Shown here: piece after piece, positions 617 to 29,463 of the stretch | How the letters are laid out: each line of letters opens with the position of its first letter | How positions within the stretch are numbered: position 1 is the first letter of the stretch | DNA from: a virus | Virus genome (UHGV): UHGV-0120658 | Reading direction: 5' to 3' (one strand) | Length of the DNA: 39,443 bases | Translations under genes and position numbers: made by a program | The notes under the pieces: generated by a model | Databases searched by the model: none | What the model saw: only the letters and a program-made list of their open reading frames with translations | Told to the model about the DNA's origin: nothing

Positions 617-635
617 TTATGTAAATGGGTTAATG

Positions 636-669: not shown

Positions 670-710
670 GTTGGTGGTCAGTGGTGGTTATTACGGGGTA
701 ATGCCAACCG

Positions 711-730
711 CTGCCGCCACTTTGTCGCCA
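711..730. repeat. 20-bp direct repeat copy 1 (alternative attL core, or arm-type site)
   Basis: ctgccgccactttgtcgcca matches ctgccgccaatttgtcgcca at 36541-36560 in 19 of 20 positions. Confidence 0.4.
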
Positions 731-736
731 CTTGTT

Positions 737-1006: not shown

Positions 1007-1064
1007 TGATAGTGCTCCATGTGAAAAAAAAGAATATTAGCTCAACAGGGCAAAATACGCATTT

Positions 1065-2096
1065 TCAAAAACTTGCTATTGATGTTGGTAGTGTTGCCAG
1101 CGGATTAAACCGTAATGCAGTTTCCAGGTGATCCGGTGCCAGATGTGCGTAACGCATAGTCATTTTTATATCGTGATGCCCGAGAATTTTTTGTAAGGCC
1201 AGGATATTTCCACCCGACATCATGAAGTGCGCCGCAAACGTATGGCGCAGAACGTGTGTCAGTTGACCGCGAGGGAGCACGATAGACGTTTTTTCCATCA
1301 CGGATAAAAATTGAAAATAGCAGTCTGTAAAGAAATTGAACCCATCAAGCGCCATGATCTCTTCGTAAAGCTCTTTACTGATAGGGATGCTTCTGTTTTT
1401 CTTCCCCTTCGTTCTTACAAAGGTAATTCGGTATTTGGTCACCTGTGAGCGGGTAAGATTTACGGCTTCACGCCAACGTGCGCCTGTGCTTAAGCATATC
1501 TTAACTACCAGTGCCAGAATTGGGTCCTGACGTTTGCAATCAGCCAGCAATTCAACAATCTGCTCATGGGTAAGCCATGCCATCTCTTTTTCTGCGATGG
1601 TGAATTTTCGCATGTTCTCCAGTGGGTTTGGATACGACCATTCGCCCAGGCGGGATAGTTCGCTAAAAACACTACTTAGATAGCTTTGCTCCAGGTTAAT
1701 GGTGACCGGGCTGGCTCCTTTCTTCCATTTCTCGCTGAAGTAGATCTCACCTGTCAGGCGTTTATCTCGATAGTGGGCAAACATTTTAGAGGTGAGATTG
1801 GTTGCAAGAGGATTGCCTAGAGCGTCAACCATCAGCAGCAATTTGTCATAGACATGCTGCCCAGCAGTCAGAGATTTACCATGTAATTTGAACCATAGCT
1901 CAACCACGTCTTTCAGGGTTCGACGATCCACTGATTCGCCCAGCCAGGGCTTTGATTCGGTTTCTTCCATCGTGTGACGCTCAAAAGCCAGTGCTTCGCC
2001 TTTGGTGGCGAATTGTTTACGCACACGACGCCCACTACGTCCGGCGGGGTAACATTCGCAAAGCCATTTTCCTGTGGTGAGTTTTCGTACTGCCAT
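1065..2096 (-). CDS. int: Tyrosine integrase (P2 Int-like)
   Basis: N-terminus MAVRKLTTGKW aligns with remembered P2 Int MAIKKLDDG; C-terminal catalytic signature LRHTFA...GHHDIKMTMRYAHL (R, H-x-x-R, Y). Start chosen at the ATG at 2094-2096, with GAGGG RBS 8 nt upstream on the minus strand. Confidence 0.9.
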   Translation of the reverse strand: MAVRKLTTGKWLCECYPAGRSGRRVRKQFATKGEALAFERHTMEETESKPWLGESVDRRTLKDVVELWFKLHGKSLTAGQHVYDKLLLMVDALGNPLATNLTSKMFAHYRDKRLTGEIYFSEKWKKGASPVTINLEQSYLSSVFSELSRLGEWSYPNPLENMRKFTIAEKEMAWLTHEQIVELLADCKRQDPILALVVKICLSTGARWREAVNLTRSQVTKYRITFVRTKGKKNRSIPISKELYEEIMALDGFNFFTDCYFQFLSVMEKTSIVLPRGQLTHVLRHTFAAHFMMSGGNILALQKILGHHDIKMTMRYAHLAPDHLETALRFNPLATLPTSIASF

Positions 2097-2122
2097 AAAA
2101 AAAGCCCTCATATCAGAGGGCT
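2097..2122 (-). terminator. Hairpin plus U-run just upstream of the int start (candidate terminator for the repressor-orf314 transcript)
   Basis: Stem agccctc (2103-2109) pairs with gagggct (2116-2122), 6-nt loop; on the minus strand it is followed by TTTTTT (2097-2102). Confidence 0.4.
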
Positions 2123-2124
2123 AA

Positions 2125-2153
2125 ATTTAACTGTATATAAAAACAGTATTCAA
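2125..2153 (-). promoter_or_regulatory. Candidate sigma70 promoter for int with a LexA box filling the spacer
   Basis: Minus strand reads TTGAAT (2153-2148), 17-nt spacer, TTAAAT (2130-2125). The spacer 2131-2146 is CTGTatataaaaACAG on the plus strand (CTGT-N8-ACAG). Confidence 0.45.
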
Positions 2154-2187
2154 TGTATTTTTTACTTAGGAGCATACATGTTCATGA

Positions 2188-3132
2188 TTAATCTGTTTCT
2201 TTATCACTTCCAGTTACTTTAACTTTGTCTTTGATTGTATTCACAAATGACGCAAAGCTCGGTGGTTGCTCTGTCTGACCTGAAAATGCAGAGTCACCTG
2301 AAATATTCCAATCCTTAAAGACTTCTATTGCATCCTCTTTAGTTGCTGTAGAACCGTATATCTGCAAAAAAACTTGACCAAACATCAAAGCATGTCGACG
2401 ATCTTTTCGCCTGATCGATTCATGTGTGTACTTTTTTGAGTTACTAAGGCAGATATATGATAGCCATGAAAGAATGGCGATTCCAACTAATCCTCGCGTG
2501 AAGATATATATTAACTGAAGGTTAGTGAGATTTTTTAAATCTAAGTTCATGTATAATGTAAAAAAAGCAGATACTACCGCAAGGAAGCCAAAAAATACCC
2601 CAGCAATAGACCAGATAATAGACATCAATATAAAATGTTTGTCATCACTAGCAAGATCTGATTTAACATCGTTAACATAGGTAGGGATTTTTTCATCGAT
2701 TCTTTGTTGCTGTACTTGGCTACGGAGTTCCTTATTTTCACTAATCAATGAATTAACTTGTTTTACATTTTTTTCGATTATTGCGTTTTTTCTATTAATA
2801 TCCTGAGTATAATGCTCTAACTGTAGAGTTAATATGCTGTTTCGTTCTTCTAATTGTATTATATGTTCTACATAATTATTAGGTTCAAGTGATTTTACAT
2901 TTTTTCTTTTATTAGTTTCATTTTCATTTATATTGGGTTCTTCATCCATCGCTGGCCTAGTTATGTATTTTTCAATTAGTGCTAGGTTATTATGAGCTTC
3001 AGAAAACTCTCCTGCTTCTATTAAGTTTTTTATATGAGAGTAGAAGTGTTTTGCTATATTTTCAGACTGTGAATCAAGAAAGTCTAATAGGTGTTTTTTT
3101 ATTTCGCTATCTTTATTGGTTGGTTCAGTCAT
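2188..3132 (-). CDS. Hypothetical 314-aa coiled-coil membrane protein (two predicted TM helices); cargo in the lysogenic operon
   Basis: AT-rich ORF between repressor and int on the same strand. Heptad-rich N-terminal half, two hydrophobic helices (ILMSIIWSIAGVFFGFLAVVSAFFTLYM and LQLIYIFTRGLVGIAILSWLSYICL, about 2446-2631), soluble C-terminus. Start codon 12 nt after the repressor stop. Confidence 0.6.
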   Translation of the reverse strand: MTEPTNKDSEIKKHLLDFLDSQSENIAKHFYSHIKNLIEAGEFSEAHNNLALIEKYITRPAMDEEPNINENETNKRKNVKSLEPNNYVEHIIQLEERNSILTLQLEHYTQDINRKNAIIEKNVKQVNSLISENKELRSQVQQQRIDEKIPTYVNDVKSDLASDDKHFILMSIIWSIAGVFFGFLAVVSAFFTLYMNLDLKNLTNLQLIYIFTRGLVGIAILSWLSYICLSNSKKYTHESIRRKDRRHALMFGQVFLQIYGSTATKEDAIEVFKDWNISGDSAFSGQTEQPPSFASFVNTIKDKVKVTGSDKETD

Positions 3133-3143
3133 GATGTTTCTCT

Positions 3144-4079
3144 TTATATATTTTTAGTAAAAACTCTTTTACATTTTGCCAAAACGATAATGTCAGTAAG
3201 TAAGCATTCAAAACTTGTGTTAGTGCCTACAACTTTAACCATACCAACGGGTATGCGAGTCAAATCTTTGATGCTTATTTTCCCTTCAATATTCACAAGC
3301 CACTTGCCATCAGTAACTTCATTAAATTTTGATTCTACAATATATATTTCCTCATCAATGAATACTGCTAAAGGTTGCAGAAAGGTTCCTTCTAACAACT
3401 TAGAGTCAAAAGTCAAGACGGTTTCTTGAGCAAGAGATCCATCAATTATTTTATGATATGGGATAGTGATAGTATTGATTCGAGGCTTTTCAAACATTGC
3501 CCCGTTACCAGTGGTTAGCCATGTTAATGAAGCACCAGTTTCCAGTGAGCATTGAATAATCCAGTCAGCAGGAAAGGTATCTCTCATGTAACGATTGGCT
3601 AATGTACTTTTTGATACACCAATATGATCAGCTAAAGCTTGTCTTGTCTTAAATCCATAAGCCAAAACGATTCGCTCTATTGCTGCTTTTCCGCCTTGGT
3701 TAATAGTAAAAAAGTTCTCATTTTGGATGTCTTGTTCTCTATTGAGATGTTGATGCTTGCTGTCACAATTGTTGTGACTTTTTTCTGCATTATTTGTAAT
3801 GCTTCCCTTCTCGGTATCAGTGCCAAATGCCAACCACTCGACCGGCACTCCAGTCTCCATGCTACAGATAACAACCCAATCAGCAGGGAAAGTGTCACGG
3901 GCATACCTGTTCGCCATTGTACTTTGCGATATACCTAGGTGATTACAGAATGCTTGTCGGGAAGAAAAACCATAGGCTTTCAGTATCCGATCTATAACCG
4001 ATTGCCCTCCGCGATTCTGCATGATTAAGGATTTCTTTTTTTCGTCCACATGGCGAAATGTGATTTCGTGTGTTGACAT
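3144..4079 (-). CDS. Prophage immunity repressor with two tandem CI-type HTH domains and a C-terminal beta-rich domain
   Basis: Residues about 24-86 and 129-191 are about 59% identical repeats (AYGF..RQA...G.S.ST.ANRY.RDTFPADW...CS.ETG...WL..G), resembling the phage CI N-terminal HTH. Divergent from the Apl-like gene across the 4080-4167 intergenic region. Confidence 0.7.
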   Translation of the reverse strand: MSTHEITFRHVDEKKKSLIMQNRGGQSVIDRILKAYGFSSRQAFCNHLGISQSTMANRYARDTFPADWVVICSMETGVPVEWLAFGTDTEKGSITNNAEKSHNNCDSKHQHLNREQDIQNENFFTINQGGKAAIERIVLAYGFKTRQALADHIGVSKSTLANRYMRDTFPADWIIQCSLETGASLTWLTTGNGAMFEKPRINTITIPYHKIIDGSLAQETVLTFDSKLLEGTFLQPLAVFIDEEIYIVESKFNEVTDGKWLVNIEGKISIKDLTRIPVGMVKVVGTNTSFECLLTDIIVLAKCKRVFTKNI

Positions 4080-4167
4080 AACCGATTTGTGATCCTATTC
4101 TCCGAAATGTGAAGTTGAAGCCACGATTAAAACTGACTCACCACAAGCCAATAGGAGATGTTGCATC
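4080..4167. promoter_or_regulatory. Divergent switch region (lytic and lysogenic promoters and operators expected)
   Basis: Intergenic region between the divergently transcribed repressor and Apl-like gene; contains TGTGA-type motifs. No operator or promoter was resolved. Confidence 0.3.
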
Positions 4168-4389
4168 ATGACCCCTAACATTTCAATAACCCTGAATACG
4201 CCACATGTCACAATTGAGCGTTATAGCGAACTTACTGGTCTTTCAATCGACACAATTAACGATATGCTGGCTGACGGTCGCATCCCTCGGCATCGCCTTC
4301 GGAAAGACAAGAAAAGAGAAAAGGTGATGATCAACCTTGCTGCTCTTACCGTTGATGCACTTACTGATTGCAATGTTGTATTCAACTAG
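4168..4389 (+). CDS. Apl/Cox-like excisionase-type HTH protein
   Basis: 73-aa ORF, first in the rightward early operon, with HTH-like segment [25 protein letters not shown]; AGGAG RBS upstream. Confidence 0.6.
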
Positions 4390-4421
4390 TTCCATTTTGG
4401 GATACATCAGGGGTGTCGACC

Positions 4422-4931
4422 ATGTTTGATTACCAAGTTTCCAAACATCCACATTTTGATGAAGCCTGTCGTGCATTCGCATTGCGCCACAACCTGGTGC
4501 AACTGGCAGAACGTGCTGGCATGAATGTGCAGATTCTGCGGAACAAGCTGAACCCAGCTCAACCTCATTTATTAACCGCACCAGAAATCTGGCTGCTTAC
4601 CGATCTGACTGAAGATTCAACGCTGGTAGATGGTTTTTTGGCACAGATTCATTGTCTGCCATGTGTACCGATTAATGAGGTGGCAAAAGAGAAACTGCCA
4701 CATTACGTCATGAGTGCAACCGCAGAGATCGGGCGTGTTGCTGCAGGTGCGGTATCTGGCGATGTAAAAACCAGTGCAGGTCGTCGTGATGCCATCAGCA
4801 GCATTAACTCTGTAACACGACTGATGGCACTGGCTGCTGTTTCATTGCAGGCCCGTTTACAGGCTAACCCTGCGATGGCGAGTGCAGTTGATACCGTAAC
4901 TGGCCTCGGTGCTTCATTCGGTTTGCTGTGA
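4422..4931 (+). CDS. cII: CII-like lysogeny-establishment activator (coliphage 186 CII homolog)
   Basis: 169-aa product starting [45 protein letters not shown]; recognised from memory as very similar to 186 CII. Start ATG at 4422. Confidence 0.75.
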
Positions 4932-4938
4932 GGTGCTT

Positions 4939-5235
4939 ATGCTGACGAAAGAACCATCATTTGCATCGCTGCTGGTAAAACAAAGCCCGGCAATGCACTA
5001 CGGTCACGGCTGGATCATGGGTGAGGATGGTAAACGCTGGCATCCATGTCATTCACAAGATGAATTGCTGTCTGAATTGACCACGAGGAAACGGAGAAAG
5101 TCAAAATGTATGCAGCGGAAAGTGAAGTGGTTTATCAGTTTCGTTACAGAGGGGAAAGTTATTCAGTACCTGAAGATGATTTGCTCTGTTGTTATCCGTC
5201 GTTGTCGGGCGATGGCAGTTACTTTTTCACGCTAA
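4939..5235 (+). CDS. Hypothetical early protein (ORF possibly extended by a frame problem)
   Basis: ATG at 4939 with GAGGTG RBS. The first ~55 aa look protein-like; the C-terminal part overlaps the next ORF in another frame and looks low-complexity. Confidence 0.3.
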   Translation: MLTKEPSFASLLVKQSPAMHYGHGWIMGEDGKRWHPCHSQDELLSELTTRKRRKSKCMQRKVKWFISFVTEGKVIQYLKMICSVVIRRCRAMAVTFSR

Positions 5236-5330
5236 GGGATGGGACGTTTTTACGGGGAGAGCAGGTTAAAGAAACGATACGAAAAAATGTATCTCCTCTT
5301 GAACGTTACCGTAAGAACAAAGAACGATAG
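5106..5330 (+). CDS. Hypothetical early protein (74 aa)
   Basis: ATG at 5106 with GGAG RBS 8 nt upstream; overlaps the previous ORF out of frame. Confidence 0.45.
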   Translation: MYAAESEVVYQFRYRGESYSVPEDDLLCCYPSLSGDGSYFFTLRDGTFLRGEQVKETIRKNVSPLERYRKNKER

Positions 5331-5352
5331 TTGCGTTTTGGGGATATGAATT

Positions 5353-5694
5353 ATGGCAATTAATGGCGCTGCGGCGACTGTTCCATTAAGCCCCGGTGAA
5401 CGCCTGAATGGACTTAATCACATTGCGGAGTTAAGGGCGAAAGTATTTGGCCTGAATATTGAGTCAGAGCTTGAGCGGTTTATTAAAGATATGCGTGATC
5501 CACGGGATATCAATAACGAACAAAATAAACGAGCACTGGCTGCCATATTCTTTATGGCAAAAATTCCAGCTGAACGTCATAGCATCAGCATTAATGAGCT
5601 GACCACTGACGAAAAGCGGGAGTTGATTAAAGCAATGAATCATTTTCGTGCAGTGGTGAGCTTATTTCCCAGACGGCTAACCATGCCGAATTAA
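5353..5694 (+). CDS. Hypothetical early protein (113 aa)
   Basis: ORF in the early operon; no recognised motif. Confidence 0.5.
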   Translation: MAINGAAATVPLSPGERLNGLNHIAELRAKVFGLNIESELERFIKDMRDPRDINNEQNKRALAAIFFMAKIPAERHSISINELTTDEKRELIKAMNHFRAVVSLFPRRLTMPN

Positions 5695-7076: not shown

Positions 7077-9487
7077 GTCATGACGATATGAGCAACTCTA
7101 GCGGCTTTAACGAGGCTGCCGCAGCATTTTCATGGAACGGCCCGAAAAAGGCCATTAACCCTTATCTGGATCCGGCGGAAGTTGCGCCGGAGTCTGCACT
7201 TTCAAACCTGATCACTCTGTACGCTGCCGATAACGAGCAGGAACAACTGCGCCGCGAGGCACTGAGTGAGCAGGTCTGGGAGCGTTATTTCTTTAATGAA
7301 TCCCGTGATCCTGTCCAGCGCGAAATGGAGCAGGATAAGCTCATTAGCCGGGCAAAGCTGGCGCATGAGCAGCAGCGTTTTAACCCGGACATGGTCATTC
7401 TGGCAGATGTCAGCGCCCAGCCTTCTCATATCAGCAAGCCGCTGATGCAAAGTATCGAATACTTCAGCAGCCTGGGCAGGCCAAAGGCTTATTCCCGCTA
7501 TTTGCGTGAGACGATTAAGCCATGTCTGGAGCGACTGGATTGTGTACGTGACAGTCAGCTATCTGTTTCTTTCCGTTTTATGGCAAGCCATCAAGGGCTG
7601 GAGGGGCTGCTGATCCTGCCTGAAATGAGCCAGGATCAGGTGAAACGCCTGTCCACCCTGGTAGCAGCGCATATGAGCATGTGTCTTGAGGCCGCTTGTG
7701 GTGATTTGTACGCCACCGATGACGTTAAGCCAGAAGAAATCCGCAAGACATGGGAAAAGGTGGCTGCGGAAACCCTGCGTCTGGATGTTATCCCGCCTGC
7801 GTTTGAGAAACTTCGTCGGAAAAGAAACCGCCGCAAACCTGTGCCCTATGAACTCATACCGGGTTCGCTGGCACGTATGCTTTGCGCCGACTGGTGGTAT
7901 CGAAAATTGTGGAAGATGCGTTGCGAATGGCGGGAAGAGCAGTTGCGTGCTGTCTGTCTGGTCAGCAAAAAAGCATCTCCCTATGTCAGCTATGAAGCAG
8001 TGACGCATAAACGTGAGCAGCGCCGCAAGTCGCTGGAGTTTTTCCGTTCTCATGAACTGGTGAACGAAGACGGAGACACGCTGGATATGGAAGATGTGGT
8101 AAACGCCAGCAGCAGCAACCCGGCACATCGCCGCAATGAGATGATGGCCTGCGTTAAAGGTCTGGAGCTTATCGCGGAAATGCGCGGTGACTGCGCCGTT
8201 TTCTACACCATCACCTGTCCGTCACGTTTCCATTCCACGCTCAATAACGGCAGACCAAACCCGACCTGGACAAATGCGACGGTAAGACAAAGCAGTGATT
8301 ATCTGGTCGGCATGTTTGCTGCATTTCGTAAGGCGATGCACAAAGCCGGATTGCGGTGGTATGGCGTGCGGGTGGCTGAGCCGCATCATGACGGTACTGT
8401 GCACTGGCATCTCATGTGCTTCATGCGTAAAAAAGACCGCCGCGCCATCACTGCATTACTGCGTAAGTTTGCCATCCGTGAAGACCGCGAGGAACTGGGC
8501 AATAACACGGGGCCACGCTTTAAGTCTGAGCTGATTAACCCGCGCAAAGGAACGCCGACAAGCTACATCGCGAAATACATCAGTAAGAACATTGACGGGC
8601 GTGGTCTGGCTGGCGAGATCAGCAAGGAAACGGGTAAATCCCTGCGTGATAACGCTGAATACGTTAATGCCTGGGCGTCTCTGCATCGTGTTCAGCAATT
8701 CCGCTTCTTTGGCATTCCGGGGCGTCAGGCTTACCGTGAACTGCGATTGCTGGCTGGTCAGGCGGCAAGGCAGCAGGGTGACAAAAAAGCAGGTGCGCCG
8801 GTACTGGATGATCCGCGTCTTGATGCCATTCTGGCTGCTGCTGATGCTGGCTGTTTTGCCACCTACATTATGAAGCAGGGCGGCGTGTTGGTTCCCCGCA
8901 AATATCACTTGATCAGAACCGCTTATGAAATCAACGAAGAGCCGACCGCCTATGGTGATCACGGTATTCGTATTTATGGCATCTGGTCACCCATTGCAGA
9001 GGGCAAGATCTGCACTCATGCAGTGAAGTGGAAAATGGTTCGTAAGGCCGTTGACGTTCAGGAGGCGGCAGCCGACCAGGGCGCTTGCGCCCCTTGGACT
9101 CGTGGCAATAACTGTCCCCTTGCTGAAAATTTGAACCAACAGGAGAAAGATAAATCAGCTGATGGGGACCCCAGAACGGACATTACCAGCATGGATGACA
9201 AGGGGTTGCACGATTACCTGCACAGTATGAGCAAAAAAGAGCGCCGGGAACTGGCAGCAAGGTTATGCCTGGTGAAACCGAAACGGCGTAAAGACTACAA
9301 ACAGCGAATTACAGACCATCAGCGACTGCAGCTCGTGTATGAGCTGAAGTCCAGAGGATTTGATGGCAGCGAGAAAGAGGTCGATTTACTCCTTCGCGGA
9401 GGCAGTATTCCGTCAGGAGCAGGCCTGCGTATCTTCTATCGGAACCAGCGTTTGCAGGAAGATGATCAGTGGCGGAACCTGTATTAA
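7073..9487 (+). CDS. A: Replication initiation protein A (rolling-circle endonuclease, P2 gpA-like)
   Basis: 804 aa with HxH motif VHWHLMCF and the tyrosine pair SYIAKYISK typical of P2 A-type initiators. Confidence 0.85.
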
Positions 9488-9556
9488 TTACGCGGGTTAA
9501 CAATTCGTGCTCTTAATAATACCAGGCATATCAGGCTGATGAATGTAAAAAAACGT

Positions 9557-9597
9557 TTTACATCAGTAAGATTATTATATACTGTAAATATAAACAG
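9557..9597 (+). promoter_or_regulatory. Candidate SOS promoter with a LexA box overlapping the -10
   Basis: TTTACA (9557-9562), 17-nt spacer, TACTGT (9580-9585); CTGTaaatataaACAG at 9582-9597 matches the LexA consensus CTGT-N8-ACAG. Confidence 0.5.
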
Positions 9598-9640
9598 TGG
9601 TTATACATACAGTATTGCGTGTGGTGTCATAGGAGGAAAG

Positions 9641-9829
9641 ATGCAGGACTATTTTTTGGAGTCTTTGAAGCTCCAGCGCATTGATTTTTTTCTTAAGCTT
9701 GTAGCGGCTAGTGAGTGTAGTGATGAAGAGAAGGGGCTGGCTCTGCAGTGGGTTTCTGAATTGACTGATGAACTCATGGCAAAAATCAGAACCCACGAAT
9801 ACAACCGCTCAATGGATGTCATCAGCTGA
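9641..9829 (+). CDS. Small 62-aa protein in the LexA-controlled module (candidate antirepressor partner)
   Basis: ATG at 9641 with AGGAGG RBS, immediately downstream of the LexA box. Function inferred from position. Confidence 0.45.
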   Translation: MQDYFLESLKLQRIDFFLKLVAASECSDEEKGLALQWVSELTDELMAKIRTHEYNRSMDVIS

Positions 9830-9839
9830 GGTGACTTTT

Positions 9840-10073
9840 ATGCGCATTGAAATAATGATCGATAAAGAGCAGAAGATTAGCCAGTCTACCCTGGACGCCC
9901 TTGAATCCGAGCTTTACCGCAATCTGCGCCCCCTGTATCCCAAAACGGTAATTCGCATTCGCAAAGGTAGCTCTAACGGTGTGGAACTAACCGGACTGCA
10001 ACTGGACGAAGAAAGAAAACAAGTGATGAAAATTATGCAGAAGGTGTGGGAAGACGACAGCTGGCTGCATTAA
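9840..10073 (+). CDS. DinI-family protein (Tum/DinI-like SOS module)
   Basis: 77 aa MRIEIMIDKEQKISQSTLDALESELYRNLRPLYP...KIMQKVWEDDSWLH resembles E. coli DinI (MRIEVTIAK...ETWESADDWF); GAGGTG RBS. Confidence 0.65.
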   Translation: MRIEIMIDKEQKISQSTLDALESELYRNLRPLYPKTVIRIRKGSSNGVELTGLQLDEERKQVMKIMQKVWEDDSWLH

Positions 10074-10208
10074 GAAACGTTGCTGGCGTCTGAACTTGCT
10101 TCTGGCGTCAGCAAGGTTGAACAACGAGCCCTTGCGAGGCGTTAGCTCTGTAGTGCATGTCTATGCCGCATGAGATCGCATGATCGTTTGAGGATCGTTT
10201 TTGCTAAG

Positions 10209-10232
10209 GCCCGCCAGAACTGGCGGGCTTTT
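10209..10232 (+). terminator. Rho-independent terminator after the SOS module
   Basis: gcccgcca (10209-10216), loop gaac, tggcgggc (10221-10228), then tttt. Confidence 0.6.
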
Positions 10233-10383
10233 GCGTAGCTCATGCAGGTGCATGAAAACCACTACATAAAGCGGGCAGGCGTGGCGGGGATACGAGCGCG
10301 CGCTTAGCCATGAATCTGTGGACTTGATGGTGAAGCTAAGGTAATTTGTATCAAAAAAAAGCAGTACAATAGGGATATATAGA

Positions 10384-11463
10384 GTGGCGTTATCAGATGC
10401 GTTAATTACAGTAAATCAAGCCGAACGGGGCGGTGAAAACGCGTTGAGAGGCTTTTCATATCAAGCCTCTTGGGGGATAAATTATTTACTTGAGAAACAA
10501 AAAGAAAAGGAGAAATATTTATTTCTATTTGAATATCATGACGATATTCTTGTATTGAATTCATCTGTTTCTCCGACTAGTGCTGAGTTTATCCAAGTTA
10601 AAACAAAAAAAGATGGTAAATGGACACTCGCAGCAATAGTGAACGCAACAAAAGCTAAACCTAAATCATTTGTTGCAAAACTATATGACCATTTCTATCA
10701 ATTCGTTGGTCACGAAATTTATATGGTTCTGTTATCGAATGCTGGATTCGATTTCTTAAATGATAATAACGAAAAAGGTAGTGATCTTAATAATGAGCAT
10801 AAGGAAATTATAATTAGTAAGGTTCAAGAGCAGCTAAATACTAAAAAAGAAGTTCCTCTTGATAAAATAAAATTTAAAACATCTGATCTTAGTTTGTTAG
10901 ATCCTAACTCACATTTATACGGGAAAGTTGCAGTTTTTTTGAATTCTTACTTTGGGGATGATCATGGTATTAATTCAACAGCATTCACTAAATTATTAAT
11001 CAATAAGTGTAATGAGAAGGTTAGTGTTGCTTCTAGTGATATCAAAACTTTTGAAGATTTAGTACTAAAGAAAGGTATATCTTCAGAATTTGTAACTGAT
11101 TTATTATCTGGACTCATTGCAAGCATAAAAATAACGCCAAAATGGGAACAGGTTTGTATGTTGCTTGGTACTTTCTCAGATCCTTATGAGGGGATTAAAT
11201 TACAATCAGTTTTTACACGCATATCAATAAAAGTGCTCAATGTCAATTCAATATACTATCTTTATTTTCTGGAATTTCAATCGGCTCTAAAGAGTATAGA
11301 GCATTATCGTGAGATACCTGTTCGAGACCTCTTCTTTACACTCGAAAAAACAATTGCAGCGGGGGACGGGGATTTCTCTTTATTAAATCAAGAAGAGAAA
11401 TTTATGATTGCTATATATGCAATTATAAAGTTGACTTTTGAGGATGTTTCTTATGAAGAATAA
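10384..11463 (+). CDS. Candidate defence effector: PD-(D/E)xK nuclease of the Cap4/DUF4297 type (LmuA-like)
   Basis: AT-rich gene; N-terminal GFSYQ, then FEYHDDILVL...AEFIQVKTKK, i.e. a D...QxK restriction-endonuclease-like catalytic core (about 10540-10602). GTG start with AGGGA RBS; 11-nt overlap with the downstream ATPase gene. Confidence 0.55.
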   Translation: MALSDALITVNQAERGGENALRGFSYQASWGINYLLEKQKEKEKYLFLFEYHDDILVLNSSVSPTSAEFIQVKTKKDGKWTLAAIVNATKAKPKSFVAKLYDHFYQFVGHEIYMVLLSNAGFDFLNDNNEKGSDLNNEHKEIIISKVQEQLNTKKEVPLDKIKFKTSDLSLLDPNSHLYGKVAVFLNSYFGDDHGINSTAFTKLLINKCNEKVSVASSDIKTFEDLVLKKGISSEFVTDLLSGLIASIKITPKWEQVCMLLGTFSDPYEGIKLQSVFTRISIKVLNVNSIYYLYFLEFQSALKSIEHYREIPVRDLFFTLEKTIAAGDGDFSLLNQEEKFMIAIYAIIKLTFEDVSYEE

Positions 11464-13111
11464 CGTTAAATTTAAAAATATAAAAATACTCTCATTAAGA
11501 GACAGAAAAGCTTTTTCTTATGAGTTTTCAGAAGGGGTTAACTTCATATATGGTACAAATGATGTTGGTAAATCAAGCCTGATTAAAAGTCTTTATTACA
11601 CATTAGGTGGAGATTTAAGGCTTGATGATGCTTGGAAATCAGATGATATAGTTACACTGGTGGAAATTAATAACGGGGAAAATGATTTTATTTTTTTGCG
11701 TTATAAAAAGATTATTGGTGTCTTTGATTTGAAGAATGATGATCTAGTCGTGTATAACACGATTTCGTCATTAGCATCTCGTGTTTCAAATATATTTGGT
11801 TTTAAACTGGAATTACATAATAAATATACGGGTGCTACGACTCAGGCAAACCCTGCTTGTTTGTTTGCCCCATTCTTTATTGATCAGGATGAAGGATGGA
11901 AAGCGGTGATAAATTCTTTCGAAAACATGAGTATGTACTCAGAATGGCAAAAAAACATTCTTTACTATCACTCTGGAATTAAGCCAAAGGAATATTATAC
12001 AGTTCAAGGGAAAATCAAAGAAATTAAAGTTAAAATTTCAGAGTTAGATGGTTTTGTTAAGGTTCTAAAAAGAAGCAAAAGTAAGATTGATGAATCTTTT
12101 GGCGTGGTTTTATTTGATGTTGATTTGGATTTTTATAAATCAAAGTTGGAACGTATATTAAATGAATATTCTAATTTAAATTTAGTTCAGACAGAATATA
12201 GATTGAATCTTTTGAGGTTATATTCTAGGAAGAATTTCCTTGAGAGTGAACTCAAAGAGATAACTGCGATTATTGATAATGAATTTGAGATTTCGAATTT
12301 TCGAGATGATAATGTTGCTTATTCAGTAAATGAATATAATTATATAAACCATAGAGATGAAATGCTCAAAAACATTGCTGTTCTTGCAGATGAGAAAAGC
12401 AAGATTGAGGAAAATATTCCTAAATTGAATCAAAAGCTAGAAGAGTCAAGGGCTGCTTCAGAGGCGTTGCAGGCGCTGATTTTAGAAACTCAATCGGAAA
12501 TAACGCTTCATGATGTTATTAAATCTGCCGCATACCATGAAATTGAATCTACTTTTATTTCACAGTTAGATGAGTTATTCGTTGAGATTGGTCGAAAAGA
12601 AGGCGAGTTGACAGAATTACAAGAAGAATTAGAAGTATACAATGATAAGAAAAGAACTGTTAAAATAAATGACTGTTTCAAAGAGTATTTCGCTAAAGCT
12701 CTTAAAGAGCTTGGTGTCGAAAATACAAAGGTAGGTGGCCTTAGTAGTTATAATAATATTACTAAGGGTAAGACTGGTAGTCGAGGTCCTCGAGGTATAT
12801 TTGCATTTCACTACGCGCTGCTTAGTGTTATGAAAAGCAACTCTTCAGTTGAGAATATGCCTATAGTAATAGACTCTCCAAAGCAACAAGATTTGGATCC
12901 AGAGCATACGCATAAGCTTATAAAACTATGCTTGGATGGGTTTTCCCTTACAAATCAGATTATTATTGGAACTGTTGGTTATGAGAGTTTCATGGATGGT
13001 TTTAATAGCATCAAACTTGAAAATAAATATCATCTTTTAAATGATGAACATTATGATAATGTTTATTCTCAATTAATGCCATTGTTTGAACGGGTGATAC
13101 TTTCAAGATGA
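11453..13111 (+). CDS. Candidate defence ATPase: SMC/Rad50-like coiled-coil ABC ATPase (LmuB-like)
   Basis: Walker A GTNDVGKSS near the N-terminus (about 11552-11578), long central heptad-rich region, C-terminal Walker B-like PIVIDSP. ATG at 11453 overlaps the upstream stop (11461-11463). Confidence 0.55.
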   Translation: MKNNVKFKNIKILSLRDRKAFSYEFSEGVNFIYGTNDVGKSSLIKSLYYTLGGDLRLDDAWKSDDIVTLVEINNGENDFIFLRYKKIIGVFDLKNDDLVVYNTISSLASRVSNIFGFKLELHNKYTGATTQANPACLFAPFFIDQDEGWKAVINSFENMSMYSEWQKNILYYHSGIKPKEYYTVQGKIKEIKVKISELDGFVKVLKRSKSKIDESFGVVLFDVDLDFYKSKLERILNEYSNLNLVQTEYRLNLLRLYSRKNFLESELKEITAIIDNEFEISNFRDDNVAYSVNEYNYINHRDEMLKNIAVLADEKSKIEENIPKLNQKLEESRAASEALQALILETQSEITLHDVIKSAAYHEIESTFISQLDELFVEIGRKEGELTELQEELEVYNDKKRTVKINDCFKEYFAKALKELGVENTKVGGLSSYNNITKGKTGSRGPRGIFAFHYALLSVMKSNSSVENMPIVIDSPKQQDLDPEHTHKLIKLCLDGFSLTNQIIIGTVGYESFMDGFNSIKLENKYHLLNDEHYDNVYSQLMPLFERVILSR

Positions 13112-13117
13112 AAATAT

Positions 13118-13135
13118 GGCCTCAGAAATGAGGCC
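13118..13135. terminator. Hairpin between the convergent ATPase gene and portal gene
   Basis: ggcctca / gaaa / tgaggcc; the minus-strand side is followed by a T-rich tract. Confidence 0.4.
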
Positions 13136-13151
13136 GACTAAATTATCTTAA

Positions 13152-14186
13152 TTAAATTTTTAGTTCGTAGGTTGAAAAATTTATAATTCTATCGTTTAAC
13201 CAATTATTTATTTCTAGAAACATTTTTTGTAGAGGCAGTAGCTCATTTCGTACAAATACTGTGCTTGCCTTTTCGATATCCCCAAACCCCCCGACATTAT
13301 TAGGCATTATCCCCATCATTTGTGGCGGCACACGATGCGCCGCCATCATGTCGTCCCGGCTCACGTTCTTGATATTCAGGAACTCATCCTTCGCCGCCAC
13401 TTCTGACAACGGGATAATCTGAAGCCCGTCCTTTTTACCGTTAGGCGAGTACATAAACAGGTTACGGAAGTTACCAGGACCTTTGGCGCTTTTCATCGCA
13501 TTGCGGAGGTTGTTCACATCCTCCTGGTTCTGCGCAGCATCGGTCATGTACATGATGAAGCCTGCATGACTGCCGTTAATGTAATACTTGCGGCGGAACA
13601 GCGTGGCGGACTCGTTGAGCAGAGCTGACGGAATGGCAGAAAGATAACCGGGCAGGCCGTAGATCTCCTGGTTAATGTCCGGTTCCATCAGATGAAAAAT
13701 GCTGCCTTTCGTGAACTGATACGGCTGGGTTGTCATACCGTATTGCACAAACCAGTAGGTATCCAGGTCTAACCCGCGTCGGGTGTATTTTGCCAGCGCA
13801 GGCTCAAGGGCGATAACTTCACCGAATCGGTTCGTGCGTTTCTCCAGGTAGGCGTTACCAAATACCAGATAGTCCAGCACAAAACGCGAAAAAGCCTGCT
13901 GGCTGAGAAGCGGGTGAGGGATGTAGGTGCTGGTCAGAATGTTGCATTTCACTGCAATTGGTGAACTGTGATGCACGGCAGCGCGGAAGGTGCGCGCCAG
14001 TCCGTCAAAGCTGACGGGAGGCTCATACCAGCGATCTGTCTGTACGCATTCCACATAGTCCAGCAGTTCGCGGCGGTCAAGTACTGGAATGGGATCACCG
14101 AAGCTGAATGCTTCGGCTGAAGCTTGGCTTTTATGCTGGATCTGGTTCGTCGCCGCAGCGCGTTTTTTTTTACTCTTTCCCATCAA
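13152..14186 (-). CDS. Q: Portal protein (P2 gpQ-like)
   Basis: 344 aa, same length as P2 Q; sits next to the terminase gene in the conserved Q-P leftward operon. Confidence 0.85.
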   Translation of the reverse strand: MMGKSKKKRAAATNQIQHKSQASAEAFSFGDPIPVLDRRELLDYVECVQTDRWYEPPVSFDGLARTFRAAVHHSSPIAVKCNILTSTYIPHPLLSQQAFSRFVLDYLVFGNAYLEKRTNRFGEVIALEPALAKYTRRGLDLDTYWFVQYGMTTQPYQFTKGSIFHLMEPDINQEIYGLPGYLSAIPSALLNESATLFRRKYYINGSHAGFIMYMTDAAQNQEDVNNLRNAMKSAKGPGNFRNLFMYSPNGKKDGLQIIPLSEVAAKDEFLNIKNVSRDDMMAAHRVPPQMMGIMPNNVGGFGDIEKASTVFVRNELLPLQKMFLEINNWLNDRIINFSTYELKI

Positions 14187-21522: not shown

Positions 21523-21614
21523 AGATTCATGCTTTTGCTAGCTTCTACAAGGTTTTATGCTTCTAAACACTGTATGTTTAATTTGACATATAACTATTTG
21601 TACAAGCGGTGAGT

Positions 21615-27899: not shown

Positions 27900-27901
27900 A
27901 A

Positions 27902-28902: not shown

Positions 28903-29463
28903 ATGATTATTGGGTATGCACGAGTATCAAGTAACCATCAGGACACCGAGCTTCAGATGCAGGCGCTCAGAGCTGCTGGCTGTAAGTTAATTTTTGAGGA
29001 AAAGGCTTCTGGCCGTAAGACGAATCGACCAATCTTGAAGAAAGTGGTTGAGATGCTTGAACCCGGTGACGAACTGGTCATCTGGAAGTTAGATCGTATC
29101 GGTCGCAATGTACTGCACGCATTATTGACCTTTCAGAGCCTCGCAGAACGCAATGTTAATATTCGTTCTATTACAGATGGCGTTGACCTGAGCACTGCCA
29201 GTGGGCGCTATAACTTCCGTAATATTCTCTCTGCGGCACAATATGAGTCTGATCTGAATAGTGAACGCACTCTGGCAGGGTTAGCGGTTGCCCGCGCTAA
29301 GGGGAGGATTGGCGGACGTAAGCCTAAGTATACTGATGAGCACTGGGATGCGTTTGAACGGGAAATTAAGTCCGGCTGCTCACATCGTGATATAGCTCTC
29401 AAATATGGGGTCGGCCTGTCGACTCTCTACAAACGTTATCCGCCTCAGCAAGAGCATCACTAA
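28903..29463 (+). CDS. Serine recombinase, DNA invertase (Hin/Gin/Pin/Cin family)
   Basis: N-terminal catalytic domain MIIGYARVSSNHQDTELQMQAL with the active-site serine in RVSS; C-terminal HTH. Confidence 0.85.
   Translation: MIIGYARVSSNHQDTELQMQALRAAGCKLIFEEKASGRKTNRPILKKVVEMLEPGDELVIWKLDRIGRNVLHALLTFQSLAERNVNIRSITDGVDLSTASGRYNFRNILSAAQYESDLNSERTLAGLAVARAKGRIGGRKPKYTDEHWDAFEREIKSGCSHRDIALKYGVGLSTLYKRYPPQQEHH

What the first reader, a model, noticed from the sequence alone, without database searches (positions are those of the whole stretch)
10384..13111. AT-rich two-gene cargo at the A-to-portal hotspot: Cap4/DUF4297-like nuclease plus SMC-like ATPase (Lamassu-like)
The interval between replication gene A and portal gene Q is the tin/old cargo position of P2. 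Here it holds a very AT-rich, translationally coupled pair (11-nt overlap). Gene 1 has GFSYQ and a D-D...Q-x-K core in the spacing of PD-(D/E)xK Cap4-type nucleases. Gene 2 has an N-terminal Walker A (GTNDVGKSS), a long coiled-coil and a C-terminal Walker B-like PIVIDSP. Effector followed by SMC-like ATPase is the Lamassu (LmuA-LmuB) architecture, but no LmuC-like third gene is present and the ATPase lacks an obvious LSGGQ signature, so it could be a divergent or unclassified variant.
Basis: partly seen in the sequence, partly recalled or inferred. Interest (0 to 1): 0.7.

Follow-up and report, generated by a model that had tools for sequence, protein, structure and literature searches.

The report
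Two-gene Lamassu defence system in prophage
The two AT-rich genes are an intact two-gene (type I) Lamassu anti-phage system, a nuclease held by an SMC/Rad50-like ATPase, carried as swappable cargo next to the packaging site of a P2/186-like E. coli prophage. Standard defence-finding tools already recognise it, so it is an ordinary, known finding.

Summary
Two co-oriented ORFs, 10384..11463 and 11453..13111, overlap by 11 nt and have 32% GC against about 53% for the phage backbone. All the quoted motifs are present.

- ORF1 matches PADLOC LmuA over its full length (E 4e-143) and Pfam Cap4_nuclease (E 1.4e-33).
- ORF2 matches PADLOC LmuB over its full length (E 8e-254).
- A profile of the LmuB family finds the solved type I Lamassu LmuB of Bacillus cellulasensis (9ux7_A, E 1.7e-47).
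- Both predicted folds have 9ux7 chains as their best PDB match.

The missing LmuC is the defining trait of published type I Lamassu (clade S). The Asp-Ser Walker B is the published deviant motif of short Lamassu.

Two refinements:
- This gammaproteobacterial subclade has lost the CxxC zinc hook that BcLmuB and more distant relatives keep.
- The cargo lies on the portal side of cos, whereas P2's old/tin lie on the A side.

Sibling prophages carry a retron Ec78 system or a DUF262 gene in the same slot. The likely mechanism, inferred by homology, is that an LmuB dimer sequesters monomeric LmuA, senses foreign DNA ends and releases LmuA, which oligomerises and cuts DNA (abortive infection). This kind of system is already known, so interest is low.

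The parts
10203..10234 (+). Hairpin with T-run downstream of the DinI/Tum-like gene. It probably terminates the SOS-controlled early-right transcript before cos. This is context, not part of the cargo.
   Evidence: Inverted repeat I3, 15-nt arms, 87% complementary, followed by TTTTGC.
10246..10295 (.). cos region of the prophage. It comprises the cosR-side flank plus the putative 19-nt cohesive end GGCGTGGCGGGGATACGAG (10277-10295). It marks the left edge of the variable slot.
   Evidence: Window 10246-10290 aligns to the P2 cosR flank plus cohesive end at 82% over 45 nt, E 1e-5 (P2 annotation). In 1,282 E. coli records the backbone homology stops at about window 10315-10317.
10318..13151 (+). 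Variable cargo slot between cos and the stop codon of portal gene Q. Here it is filled by lmuAB.
   Evidence: Only 11 of 5,426 complete E. coli genomes match beyond query position about 268. Sibling prophages carry a retron Ec78 system or a DUF262 gene in the same slot. GC is 0.32 against 0.53 for the backbone.
10384..11463 (+). lmuA, 359 aa: the Lamassu effector.
   Evidence: PADLOC LmuA PDLC00243, E 4e-143, residues 1-356 on profile positions 1-360 of 361. The AlphaFold2 model has pLDDT 86. Its best PDB match is 9ux7_C, the LmuA of the B. cellulasensis LmuAB-DNA complex, E 7.9e-7, TM 0.51/0.59.
10426..11019 (+). Cap4-type PD-(D/E)xK dsDNA nuclease domain of LmuA (residues 15-212). Candidate catalytic residues are E50, D53/D54, Q71 and K73 (codon 10600-10602).
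   Evidence: Pfam PF14130 Cap4_nuclease, E 1.4e-33, residues 15-212. G17, Q27, D54, Q71 and K73 are invariant in 59 diverse family members. H52, D53, D54, Q71, V72 and K73 are invariant in closer relatives.
11020..11460 (+). All-helical C-terminal domain of LmuA (residues 213-359). It is inferred to be the LmuB-binding and oligomerisation module.
   Evidence: Model helices span 198-354. On its own the domain matches only the C-terminal part of LmuA profiles and no LmuC profile. Its role is inferred from BcLmuA, where the CTD anchors LmuA to the distal LmuB coiled coil.
11440..11444 (+). Shine-Dalgarno sequence GAGGA for lmuB, inside the 3' end of lmuA. It indicates translational coupling.
   Evidence: Read directly from the sequence. 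The lmuB ATG at 11453 overlaps the end of lmuA by 11 nt.
11453..13111 (+). lmuB, 552 aa: a short Rad50/SMC-like ABC ATPase, the sensor and scaffold of Lamassu.
   Evidence: PADLOC LmuB PDLC00255, E 8.3e-254, residues 3-550 on profile positions 2-549 of 550. The family profile hits 9ux7_A 'Lamassu protein LmuB' at E 1.7e-47 over the full length. The model has pLDDT 86 and its best PDB match is 9ux7_A at E 5.5e-23, followed by type II LmuB proteins and then Rad50.
11552..11575 (+). Walker A motif G34-T-N-D-V-G-K40-S41.
   Evidence: N36, G39, K40 and S41 are invariant in 44 homologs. The motif aligns with the BcLmuB Walker A region. K37A in BcLmuB and K40A in VcLmuB almost abolish ATPase activity, and VcLmuB K40A also impairs defence against Lambda-vir.
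11987..12709 (+). Antiparallel coiled-coil arm (residues 179-419). It has breaks at about 217-224 and 350-351 and an apex loop at 283-287.
   Evidence: DSSP of the model gives H179-216, H225-282, H288-349, H352-395 and H399-419. BcLmuB kinks at 210-225 and 351-357.
12293..12313 (+). Coiled-coil apex (residues 281-287) without a CxxC zinc hook.
   Evidence: The query and all 27 aligned relatives of 36% identity or more have no C..C. All 16 relatives of 30% identity or less have CP[TIMR]C at about residue 294, plus about 18 extra residues. Model pLDDT is below 50 at 281-284.
12773..12793 (+). T441-G-S-R-G-P-R447: a degenerate motif at the position of the ABC signature motif.
   Evidence: G442, S443 and R447 are invariant. 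The motif sits at the N-terminus of helix 444-463, 28 residues before the Walker B Asp. It aligns with SGSG in BcLmuB. Equivalence to LSGGQ is an inference.
12860..12877 (+). Deviant Walker B P470-I-V-I-D474-S475, with Asp-Ser in place of Asp-Glu.
   Evidence: P470, V472, D474, S475 and P476 are invariant. BcLmuB has PFCMDS at the aligned position. This matches the published short-Lamassu consensus hhhhD[Q/S/T/E] (PMC12663957).
13118..13135 (.). GC-rich hairpin between the stop codons of lmuB and Q. On the minus strand it is the tQ-type terminator of the P-Q operon. It probably also ends lmuAB transcription.
   Evidence: The terminator scan finds 7 pairs, 5 of them G-C, with a T-run on the minus strand. 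P2 annotates a terminator tQ at the equivalent place.

Best explanation
The interval encodes an intact short Lamassu anti-phage system of the two-gene type I architecture, with a Cap4 nuclease effector. It is carried as horizontally acquired cargo in the cos-to-portal slot of a 186/P2-like prophage of E. coli.

**Shown here**
- LmuA is a Cap4-type PD-(D/E)xK nuclease domain followed by a helical C-terminal domain.
- LmuB is a 552-aa Rad50/SMC-like ABC ATPase. It has a canonical Walker A, an Asp-Ser Walker B and a folded-back coiled coil.
- The genes are translationally coupled.
- No LmuC is present, here or in relatives.

**Inferred by homology to the solved B. cellulasensis LmuAB and V. cholerae LmuACB complexes**
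- In the lysogen an LmuB dimer holds one LmuA monomer by its C-terminal domain at the distal coiled coil. This keeps the nuclease inactive.
- When a superinfecting phage or other foreign replicon produces free dsDNA ends or replication intermediates, an LmuB head binds the end.
- With ATP binding and slow hydrolysis, LmuA is released.
- LmuA assembles through its C-terminal domains into a tetramer whose paired nuclease domains cut dsDNA non-specifically. This aborts the infection, to the benefit of the prophage's clonal hosts.

This LmuB has no zinc hook. Dimerisation must therefore rest on coiled-coil, apex and LmuA contacts. That step is untested.
For: **Profile matches**
- PADLOC LmuA E 4e-143 and LmuB E 8.3e-254, both full length.
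- Pfam Cap4_nuclease E 1.4e-33.

**Links to solved structures**
- The LmuB family profile finds the solved type I LmuB 9ux7_A at E 1.7e-47 over the full length. The type II LmuB chains score only 5e-6 to 7e-4.
- The predicted LmuA and LmuB folds both have 9ux7 chains as best PDB match.
- Coiled-coil breaks at 217-224 and 350-351 mirror the BcLmuB kinks.

**Conserved residues**
- Catalytic and nucleotide-binding residues are invariant across the families.

**Gene context**
- A Cap4_nuclease gene of 356-371 aa lies directly upstream of LmuB, with no third gene, in five distant relatives: Microbulbifer, Serratia, Elizabethkingia, a mine-drainage MAG and V. cholerae.
- No LmuC is found in or around the pair.

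**Hotspot setting**
- Sibling prophages with the same backbone carry a retron Ec78 system or a DUF262 gene in the same slot.
- The A-to-Q interval is a published defence hotspot. The arrangement 'hypothetical + DinI + DUF4297 + hypothetical' is listed in its Table S5A (PMC9122126).

**Published mechanism and defence evidence** (type I LmuAB)
- 2:1 LmuB:LmuA complex
- Binding of DNA ends
- ATP-regulated nuclease activity
- LmuA tetramer
- Defence against phage T1
- Loss of function in K59A (LmuA) and K37A (LmuB) mutants
Against: - Nothing was tested experimentally for this ortholog.
- Identity to the solved type I proteins is low: 19% for LmuB and 15% for LmuA in the Foldseek alignments.
- LmuA family profiles did not detect BcLmuA, VcLmuA or Cap4 chains by sequence. 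They detected only the Hachiman HamA nuclease. The LmuA link to the solved effectors therefore rests on Pfam and PADLOC profiles, fold and gene context.
- The CxxC zinc hook is absent. In BcLmuAB the hook lies close to where the LmuA C-terminal domain binds, so stoichiometry and geometry may differ.
- No convincing promoter was found upstream of lmuA. The scan gave 12 promoter-like sites against 14.9 expected by chance, and none in 10296-10383.
- It is unclear how a prophage that itself makes cos ends avoids triggering a DNA-end sensor.
Confidence: 0.9

Rival explanations
1. The same Lamassu machine is present, but its main biological target is not lytic phage. It would act against plasmids or competing mobile elements such as P4-like satellites or other P2-like phages, as DdmABC does against plasmids in V. 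cholerae.
For: - Type II Lamassu (DdmABC) is described as a DNA defence module triggered by palindromic sequences from both phages and plasmids.
- A 40%-identical LmuAB pair lies in a P4-like satellite of Serratia, so the system moves between helpers and satellites.
- Systems in the P2 hotspot can act against related P2-like phages.
Against: - The solved type I system protects against phage T1.
- No plasmid phenotype has been reported for type I in the papers read.
- The two roles are not mutually exclusive.
Confidence: 0.1
2. The pair is an inactive or decaying remnant of a Lamassu system. It would be retained by hitch-hiking in the prophage and would no longer be functional, for example because the zinc hook was lost.
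For: - The CxxC hook is missing.
- In E. coli L73 the same lmuA is split into two ORFs and an HNH endonuclease gene has been inserted next to it, so decay does occur.
- No clear promoter was found.
Against: - Both ORFs are full length against their profiles.
- All invariant motif residues are kept.
- The hookless state is shared by a whole subclade, down to 36% identity, in many gammaproteobacterial genera, all of full length. This indicates purifying selection.
- Hookless LmuB proteins, such as the V. cholerae one, are functional.
- The locus is at least 99% identical in 11 E. coli genomes and 12 Klebsiella prophage records.
Confidence: 0.04
3. The system is really a three-gene (type II) Lamassu whose LmuC was missed. 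LmuC would be an unannotated small ORF or a gene elsewhere in the prophage.
For: LmuC proteins are small and diverse and lack a Pfam family, so profile searches can miss them.
Against: - The two genes overlap by 11 nt, and the flanks are cos on one side and a terminator plus the Q stop codon on the other. This leaves no room for a third gene.
- Four internal antisense ORFs and both upstream small ORFs have no PADLOC hit at E up to 1.
- Five distant relatives show the same two-gene layout.
- The LmuB profile is far closer to the LmuC-less BcLmuB than to type II LmuB proteins.
Confidence: 0.02
4. The pair is not a defence system. It would be a phage-encoded Rad50/SbcC-like recombination or repair module with an associated nuclease, serving prophage replication or packaging.
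For: - LmuB shows weak Rad50, RecF and SMC similarity at its N-terminus.
- Lamassu is proposed to have evolved from SbcCD.
Against: - There is no Mre11/SbcD phosphoesterase partner.
- The Rad50 hits are limited to the Walker A region and fall far below the curated cut-offs.
- The genes are cargo, absent from most sibling prophages and replaced there by other defence systems.
- GC is 32%, against 53% for the backbone.
Confidence: 0.01

Closest known systems
Type I Lamassu LmuA-LmuB of Bacillus cellulasensis NIO-1130 (PDB 9ux7/9ux8; Doron 2018 system; clade S of PMC12663957)
   Same: - Two-gene operon ordered lmuA-lmuB, with no LmuC.
- LmuA is a Cap4 nuclease domain plus a helical C-terminal domain of similar size.
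- LmuB is a short protein (552 vs 562 aa) with Walker A, a hhhhD-S Walker B, a conserved PFYIDQD loop and a kinked coiled coil.
- It is the best sequence-profile match for LmuB and the best fold match in the PDB for both proteins.
   Different: - Identity is only about 19% (LmuB) and 15% (LmuA).
- The LmuA link is not detectable by my sequence profiles.
- The window LmuB lacks the 285-CQYC-288 zinc hook and has an apex about 18 residues shorter than that of its hook-bearing relatives.
- The host is a gammaproteobacterium and the carrier is a P2/186-like prophage.
Type II Lamassu / DdmABC of Vibrio cholerae and Salmonella LmuACB (PDB 9uxh, 9ny5/9nyg, 9nxx, 9hqu/9hqx)
   Same: - Cap4-type LmuA effector.
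- Short, hookless LmuB with a deviant Walker B.
- Fold matches rank second and below for both proteins.
- By inference, the same logic of DNA-end sensing and LmuA release.
   Different: - Type II needs LmuC, which sits at the centre of the complex and contacts DNA. No LmuC is present here.
- LmuB is about 100 aa longer (653-660 aa).
- The sequence-profile match is only 5e-6 to 7e-4.
CBASS effector Cap4 (PDB 6vm5, 6vm6, 6wam, 6wan)
   Same: The nuclease domain belongs to the same family, PF14130. Fold matches are at E about 1e-3.
   Different: - Cap4 carries a SAVED/CARF sensor domain and is activated by cyclic oligonucleotides from a CD-NTase.
- The window protein has a helical LmuB-binding C-terminal domain instead, and no cyclase gene is nearby.
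Rad50/SbcC of the Mre11-Rad50 (SbcCD) repair complexes
   Same: ABC ATPase head split by an antiparallel coiled coil. Walker A similarity and fold matches are seen. It is the proposed evolutionary ancestor of Lamassu.
   Different: - The coiled coil is much shorter.
- There is no zinc hook.
- Walker B is Asp-Ser and the signature motif is degenerate.
- The partner is a Cap4 nuclease rather than an Mre11/SbcD phosphoesterase.
P2 old and tin (exclusion genes of the same hotspot)
   Same: Non-essential, AT-rich defence cargo in the A-to-Q interval next to cos of a P2-family phage.
   Different: - The proteins are unrelated.
- old and tin lie between A and cos and are transcribed leftward.
- lmuAB lies between cos and Q and is transcribed rightward.
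Hachiman HamA nuclease (PDB 8zue)
   Same: It is the only PDB chain found by the LmuA sequence profiles, at E 1e-4 to 8e-4. It shares the GF.[YF]Q ... DDI ... F.QVK core.
   Different: - The similarity is confined to about 90 N-terminal residues.
- HamA is 565 aa and works with the HamB helicase, which is absent here.

Membership tests
Lamassu (any type) | An LmuB protein: an SMC/Rad50-like ABC ATPase that matches LmuB profiles over its full length. | tested here: met
   PADLOC PDLC00255, E 8.3e-254, residues 3-550 on profile positions 2-549 of 550, plus 15 or more further LmuB models. The family profile hits the solved 'Lamassu protein LmuB' 9ux7_A at E 1.7e-47. The best fold match is 9ux7_A at E 5.5e-23.
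Lamassu (any type) | An LmuA effector gene next to lmuB, in the same operon. | tested here: met
   PADLOC LmuA PDLC00243, E 4e-143. The gene is co-oriented with lmuB, overlaps it by 11 nt and contains an internal SD for lmuB. The same adjacency is seen in five distant relatives.
Lamassu (any type) | Canonical Walker A (Gx4GK[S/T]) in LmuB. | tested here: met
   G34-TNDV-G39-K40-S41. N36, G39, K40 and S41 are invariant in 44 homologs.
Short Lamassu | LmuB of about 600 aa with Walker B of the form hhhhD[Q/S/T/E] (PMC12663957). | tested here: met
   LmuB is 552 aa. I471-V-I-D474-S475 is invariant apart from I471 and I473. The published definition is quoted.
Short Lamassu | ATPase head halves joined by a folded-back coiled coil. 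| tested here: met
   The AlphaFold2 model (pLDDT 86) has beta-rich head lobes at 1-175 and 434-552 and helices spanning 179-419 with an apex at 283-287.
Lamassu with Cap4 effector | N-terminal Cap4/DUF4297 PD-(D/E)xK nuclease domain with a conserved catalytic lysine. | tested here: met
   PF14130, E 1.4e-33, residues 15-212. D54, Q71 and K73 are invariant in 59 diverse members. Equivalence of K73 to BcLmuA K59 and VcLmuA K57 is inferred from the motif position and was not aligned residue by residue.
Type I Lamassu (clade S) | Absence of LmuC. | tested here: met
   There is no room for a third gene. None of six small ORFs in or beside the pair has a PADLOC hit at E up to 1, and the LmuA C-terminal domain matches LmuA models only. 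Five relatives have the same two-gene layout.
Type I Lamassu (clade S) | CxxC zinc hook at the coiled-coil apex, as in the solved BcLmuB. This is not a requirement of the family, because short LmuB proteins have 0, 1 or 2 copies. | tested here: not met
   There is no C..C anywhere in the protein or in any relative of 36% identity or more. CP[TIMR]C is present in all 16 aligned relatives of 30% identity or less. The published variation is quoted.
Type I Lamassu (clade S) | An LmuB2:LmuA1 resting complex, binding of dsDNA ends, ATP-regulated release and tetramerisation of LmuA, and anti-phage activity. | not testable with these tools
   These properties are known for BcLmuAB. Testing them here needs biochemistry, cryo-EM and plaque assays.
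Type II Lamassu / DdmABC | A third gene, lmuC, encoding a small globular subunit. | tested here: not met
   See the rows above.
CBASS (Cap4 effector) | A SAVED/CARF sensor domain on the nuclease, and a CD-NTase gene in the operon. | tested here: not met
   The only Pfam domain on LmuA is Cap4_nuclease, and its C-terminal domain is all-helical. The neighbours are DinI, a small orf, LmuB and the portal gene.
Hachiman | HamA (DUF1837, about 540 aa) paired with the HamB helicase. | tested here: not met
   The HamA models match only residues 5-97, at E 5e-11 to 2e-8. No helicase gene is adjacent.
Gabija / OLD-family ATPase nucleases | An ATPase fused to a Toprim nuclease (GajA, Old), with a GajB helicase in Gabija. 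| tested here: not met
   The GajA models match only short stretches, at E 4e-5 to 2e-4. There is no Toprim hit and no helicase gene.
P2-family defence hotspot cargo | Location between gpA and gpQ next to cos, variable between otherwise homologous prophages, with atypical composition. | tested here: met
   cos lies at 10246-10295. Backbone homology stops at about 10317 in 1,282 records, and 11 genomes carry lmuAB. The alternative cargos are a retron Ec78 system and a DUF262 gene. GC is 0.32 against 0.53. The hotspot is defined in PMC9122126.

The most novel reading that the evidence does not exclude
The pair may represent the most reduced Lamassu architecture, with no LmuC and no zinc hook. 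Neither of the two dimerisation and bridging devices seen in solved complexes (the Zn hook in BcLmuAB, LmuC in VcLmuACB) would then be available. The LmuB dimer would have to be held together, and LmuA sequestered, by a different apex or coiled-coil interface. A further point is that the system lies directly beside cos in a phage that itself generates DNA ends, so the phage may have a dedicated way of avoiding self-triggering during induction. As far as the papers read here show, no hookless type I system has been studied structurally or functionally.
Probability: 0.25. Interest if true: 0.4.

Novelty: already known. Interest (0 to 1): 0.14.

Why it matters
The finding adds little that is new. 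It documents that a type I Cap4 Lamassu is one of the interchangeable alleles of the cos-proximal defence slot of 186/P2-like prophages. Essentially the same 3.1 kb occurs in E. coli and Klebsiella prophages, and a 40%-identical pair occurs in a Serratia P4-like satellite. This fits the published picture of defence systems shuttling between P2 helpers and P4 satellites.

The modestly useful point is that this clade lacks both LmuC and the zinc hook. That makes it a compact, E. coli-native model (911 aa in total) for asking what minimal features a Lamassu needs to dimerise, hold its nuclease and sense DNA ends. It could also show how a cos phage tolerates a DNA-end sensor.

Tried and rejected
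- **Single-sequence phmmer against the PDB.** LmuA gave nothing and LmuB gave only the Rad50 Walker A region. A family profile was needed to reach the solved LmuB.
- **LmuA profiles against the PDB.** I tried three searches: 14 sequences (A2), 59 diverse sequences from a 1.84-billion-protein scan (A3), and both at E up to 10. None detected BcLmuA, VcLmuA or Cap4 chains. Only Hachiman HamA was found. I therefore could not align K73 to the published catalytic lysines residue by residue. The link rests on Pfam and PADLOC profiles and on the fold.
- **Search for a hidden LmuC.** I scanned four internal antisense ORFs, the two upstream small ORFs and the LmuA C-terminal domain alone. No LmuC hit was found.
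- **Promoter scan of 9480-13300.** The 12 promoter-like sites are not above chance (14.9 expected), and none lies in the 10296-10383 leader. By eye, a TACAAT at 10365-10370 lacks a -35 element and lies too close to the GTG, so I make no promoter claim.
- **Repeats.** A search for repeats flanking the cargo (insertion scars) found only short chance matches.
- **Rfam.** Nothing was found in or near the interval. ARAGORN found no tRNA in the window.
- **NCBIfam.** Only sub-threshold Rad50, SMC and RecF hits were found.
- **Literature.** The search was poorly designed and returned only generic prophage papers. Searches failed on term length.
- **Considered and rejected.** CBASS, Hachiman, Gabija/OLD and Rad50-repair memberships (see the membership table).

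Full report
**1. The observation**

The window is an E. coli chromosomal segment with a 186/P2-like prophage integrated between rcdA and ybjL. In the flagged interval there are two co-oriented ORFs.
- ORF1 is 10384..11463 (GTG start, 359 aa).
- ORF2 is listed from 11438, but its ATG at 11453 gives 552 aa, an 11-nt overlap with ORF1 and a GAGGA Shine-Dalgarno sequence 8 nt upstream.
- RefSeq annotation of an identical locus uses the same two starts.
- The N-terminus from the GTG is conserved in homologs.

GC is 0.32 for both genes, against 0.53 for gene A, 0.50 to 0.56 for Q and P, and 0.53 for the backbone.

There is no LSGGQ and no third gene.

**2. What the proteins are**

LmuA:
- ORF1 matches the PADLOC LmuA model PDLC00243 end to end (E 4e-143), plus eleven other LmuA-named models.
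- It matches Pfam Cap4_nuclease over residues 15-212 (E 1.4e-33).

LmuB:
- ORF2 matches the PADLOC LmuB model PDLC00255 end to end (E 8.3e-254), plus 15 or more further LmuB models.
- General libraries see only sub-threshold SMC_N, Rad50 and RecF similarity at the Walker A region.
- That weak signal explains why RefSeq calls it 'hypothetical protein' or 'AAA family ATPase'.

**3. Link to characterised Lamassu**

Single-sequence searches of the PDB found no Lamassu chain. Profiles and folds gave clearer results.
- A profile of 44 LmuB homologs finds 'Lamassu protein LmuB' 9ux7_A (562 aa) at E 1.7e-47 over the full length. This is the Bacillus cellulasensis type I protein.
- The type II LmuB chains (9hqu, 9uxl, 9ny5) score only 5e-6 to 7e-4.
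- The AlphaFold2 model of LmuB (pLDDT 86) has 9ux7_A as its best Foldseek hit (E 5.5e-23). Type II LmuB proteins follow, then Rad50, SMC and SbcC.
- The model of LmuA (pLDDT 86) has 9ux7_C as its best hit. This is the LmuA of the same type I complex (E 7.9e-7, TM 0.51/0.59, both domains aligned). HamA, VcLmuA, Cap4 and Salmonella LmuA follow.
- LmuA sequence profiles did not reach BcLmuA, VcLmuA or Cap4 chains. This includes one built from a scan of 1.84 billion representatives, which found 631 clusters at E up to 1e-30. They reached only the Hachiman HamA nuclease core.

The LmuA assignment therefore rests on the Pfam and PADLOC profiles, the fold and the gene context.

**4. Motifs**

In LmuB:
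- N36, G39, K40 and S41 are invariant (Walker A).
- D144 and Q145, within PFYIDQD, are invariant. This loop is also conserved in BcLmuB.
- G442, S443 and R447, within TGSRGPR, are invariant.
- P470, V472, D474, S475 and P476 are invariant (Walker B with Asp-Ser).
- D482 and Q502 are invariant.

BcLmuB has PFCMDS at the aligned Walker B position and SGSG at the aligned TGSRG position. The published surveys state that short Lamassu LmuB proteins carry hhhhD[Q/S/T/E] (PMC12663957). They also state that BcLmuB and VcLmuB have a 'naturally deviant Walker B' yet hydrolyse ATP at a moderate rate (bioRxiv 10.1101/2025.06.23.660979).

TGSRG sits at the N-terminus of a helix, 28 residues before the Walker B Asp. 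That is where an ABC signature motif belongs. I read it as a degenerate signature motif, which is an inference.

In LmuA, G17, Q27, D54, Q71 and K73 are invariant across 59 diverse members.

**5. The missing LmuC**
- The genes overlap, and the flanks are cos on one side and a terminator plus the Q stop codon on the other.
- Six small ORFs in and around the pair have no PADLOC hit. The LmuA C-terminal domain alone matches LmuA models only.
- In five relatives spanning 25-45% identity, a 356-371-aa Cap4_nuclease gene lies immediately upstream of lmuB with nothing between or after it. The relatives are Microbulbifer, V. cholerae, Serratia, a mine-drainage MAG and Elizabethkingia.

This is the published type I architecture, described as loss of LmuC in 'clade S'. 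It is a canonical type I Lamassu.

**6. One real difference: no zinc hook**
- BcLmuB has a 285-CQYC-288 hook at the apex, close to where the LmuA C-terminal domain binds.
- The window LmuB and all 27 aligned relatives of 36% identity or more have no CxxC. Their apex is about 18 residues shorter.
- All 16 aligned relatives of 30% identity or less have CP[TIMR]C at about residue 294.
- The model's apex (281-287) is a low-confidence loop.
- Variation of 0, 1 or 2 hooks among short LmuB proteins is already documented, and the hookless V. cholerae protein is functional.

This is known variation. Even so, a system lacking both LmuC and the hook has not been characterised in the papers I read.

**7. 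Genomic setting**

The cos site:
- Window 10246-10290 aligns with the P2 cosR flank plus the start of the cohesive end (82%, E 1e-5).
- This places the 19-nt cohesive end at about 10277-10295, upstream of lmuA.
- In P2, old and tin lie between A and cos, and only 186 nt separate cosL from the Q stop codon.
- Here the cos-to-Q interval holds lmuAB.

The variable slot:
- Backbone homology in 1,282 E. coli records ends at about window 10317. Only 11 of 5,426 complete genomes, plus 12 Klebsiella P2-like prophage records (99.6% identical), carry lmuAB.
- Sibling prophages with the same A-orf-DinI-cos backbone carry other cargo in the slot: retron Ec78 (RT, ATPase and PtuB) or a DUF262 gene.
- The A-to-Q interval is the published P2 defence hotspot. 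Its Table S5A already lists 'hypothetical + DinI + DUF4297 + hypothetical', including strain L73 (PMC9122126).
- A 2026 preprint confirms that defence systems concentrate in this hotspot across 1,511 P2-like prophages.

**8. Mechanism**

What is shown here is the domain anatomy, the conserved catalytic and nucleotide-binding residues, the operon coupling, the absence of LmuC and the cargo status.

- An LmuB dimer holds one LmuA monomer, by its C-terminal domain, in an inactive state.
- An LmuB head binds a dsDNA end.
- ATP binding and slow hydrolysis regulate the release of LmuA.
- Released LmuA tetramerises and degrades DNA non-specifically, which aborts the infection.

The hookless apex makes the dimerisation and LmuA-docking step the least secure part of this transfer.

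**9. Rival explanations**

I considered five alternatives:
- an anti-plasmid or anti-satellite role for the same machine;
- an inactive remnant;
- a type II system with a missed LmuC;
- a repair module;
- membership of CBASS, Hachiman or Gabija.

All are disfavoured by the evidence listed in the dedicated sections.

**10. Verdict**

The system is of an already known kind. Standard tools recognise it, and this arrangement at this hotspot has already been catalogued. Interest is low. The only mildly novel angle is the doubly reduced architecture (no LmuC, no hook) in an E. coli-native, cos-adjacent context.

Noticed in passing
window 21609-22838 (+): A 409-aa SIR2-domain protein lies in a second AT-rich island (GC 0.37-0.38) inside the late genes, probably a second defence cargo of the same prophage. 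Hits are Pfam SIR2_2 at E 1.3e-19, and PADLOC ThsA1 and a SIR2-type LmuA model at about 1e-20.
   Followed up: partly
window 2188-3132 (-): A very AT-rich (GC 0.29-0.32) 314-aa ORF lies between the 186-type CI repressor (3144..4079) and the integrase (1065..2111). It matches phrog_2628 over the full length, a family of unknown function. It has only weak membrane-protein Pfam hits and no PADLOC hit. It may be uncharacterised cargo in the int-to-repressor slot.
   Followed up: partly
window 9580-9598 and 2130-2148: Two perfect LexA-box matches TACTGT-N8-ACAGT were found, against 0.34 expected by chance. One lies upstream of the small orf (9641..9829) and the DinI/Tum-like gene (9840..10073), as in the SOS-inducible tum operon of phage 186. 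The other lies just upstream of the integrase start.
   Followed up: partly
window 10246-10295: The cos site lies upstream of lmuA, so the Lamassu genes would sit at the extreme left end of packaged linear DNA, between cosL and Q. In P2, old and tin lie at the right end.
   Followed up: yes
window 27459-29463: A resolvase/invertase gene (28903..29463; Pfam Resolvase E 2.8e-37) lies next to minus-strand ORFs for a tail-fibre assembly protein and tail-fibre C-termini. It looks like a Gin/Cin-type invertible host-range switch.
   Followed up: no
L002 (E. coli L73, NZ_CP033378) 1647-3735: In this strain an HNH endonuclease gene is inserted between DinI/cos and lmuA. lmuA is annotated as two ORFs (579 and 525 nt), which suggests decay of the system in one lineage.
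   Followed up: no
L001 (E. coli H2, NZ_CP028733) 7103-7926: The 99.9%-identical lmuAB copy lies in a prophage remnant next to ssrA. A truncated portal gene abuts a truncated tape-measure gene, so most late genes are deleted, yet lmuAB is intact. A reverse-transcriptase-domain gene lies beside ssrA.
   Followed up: no
L006/L007 (Serratia marcescens) 1-5662: A 40%-identical lmuAB pair lies directly after a P4-type primase (Zn_Ribbon_Prim, Toprim_3, DUF927) and an Ogr_Delta gene, which is in a P4-like satellite. The same Lamassu clade therefore occurs in both helper and satellite hotspots.
   Followed up: no
L012 5455-8725 and L013 5342-7123: Sibling E. coli prophages with the same A-orf-DinI-cos backbone carry a retron Ec78 system (RT, AAA ATPase and PtuB HNH) or a single DUF262 protein in the cos-to-Q slot.
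   Followed up: partly
window 36616-36694 (-): The RybB sRNA gene (Rfam RF00110, 105 bits) lies just outside the ogr end of the prophage. The phage may use the rybB region as its attachment site.
   Followed up: no
window 3144-4079 (-): The immunity repressor ORF, as listed, is 311 aa and has two Phage_CI_repr HTH matches plus one Phage_CI_C domain. This is longer than a typical 186 CI. It could be a duplicated HTH or an over-extended ORF call.
   Followed up: no
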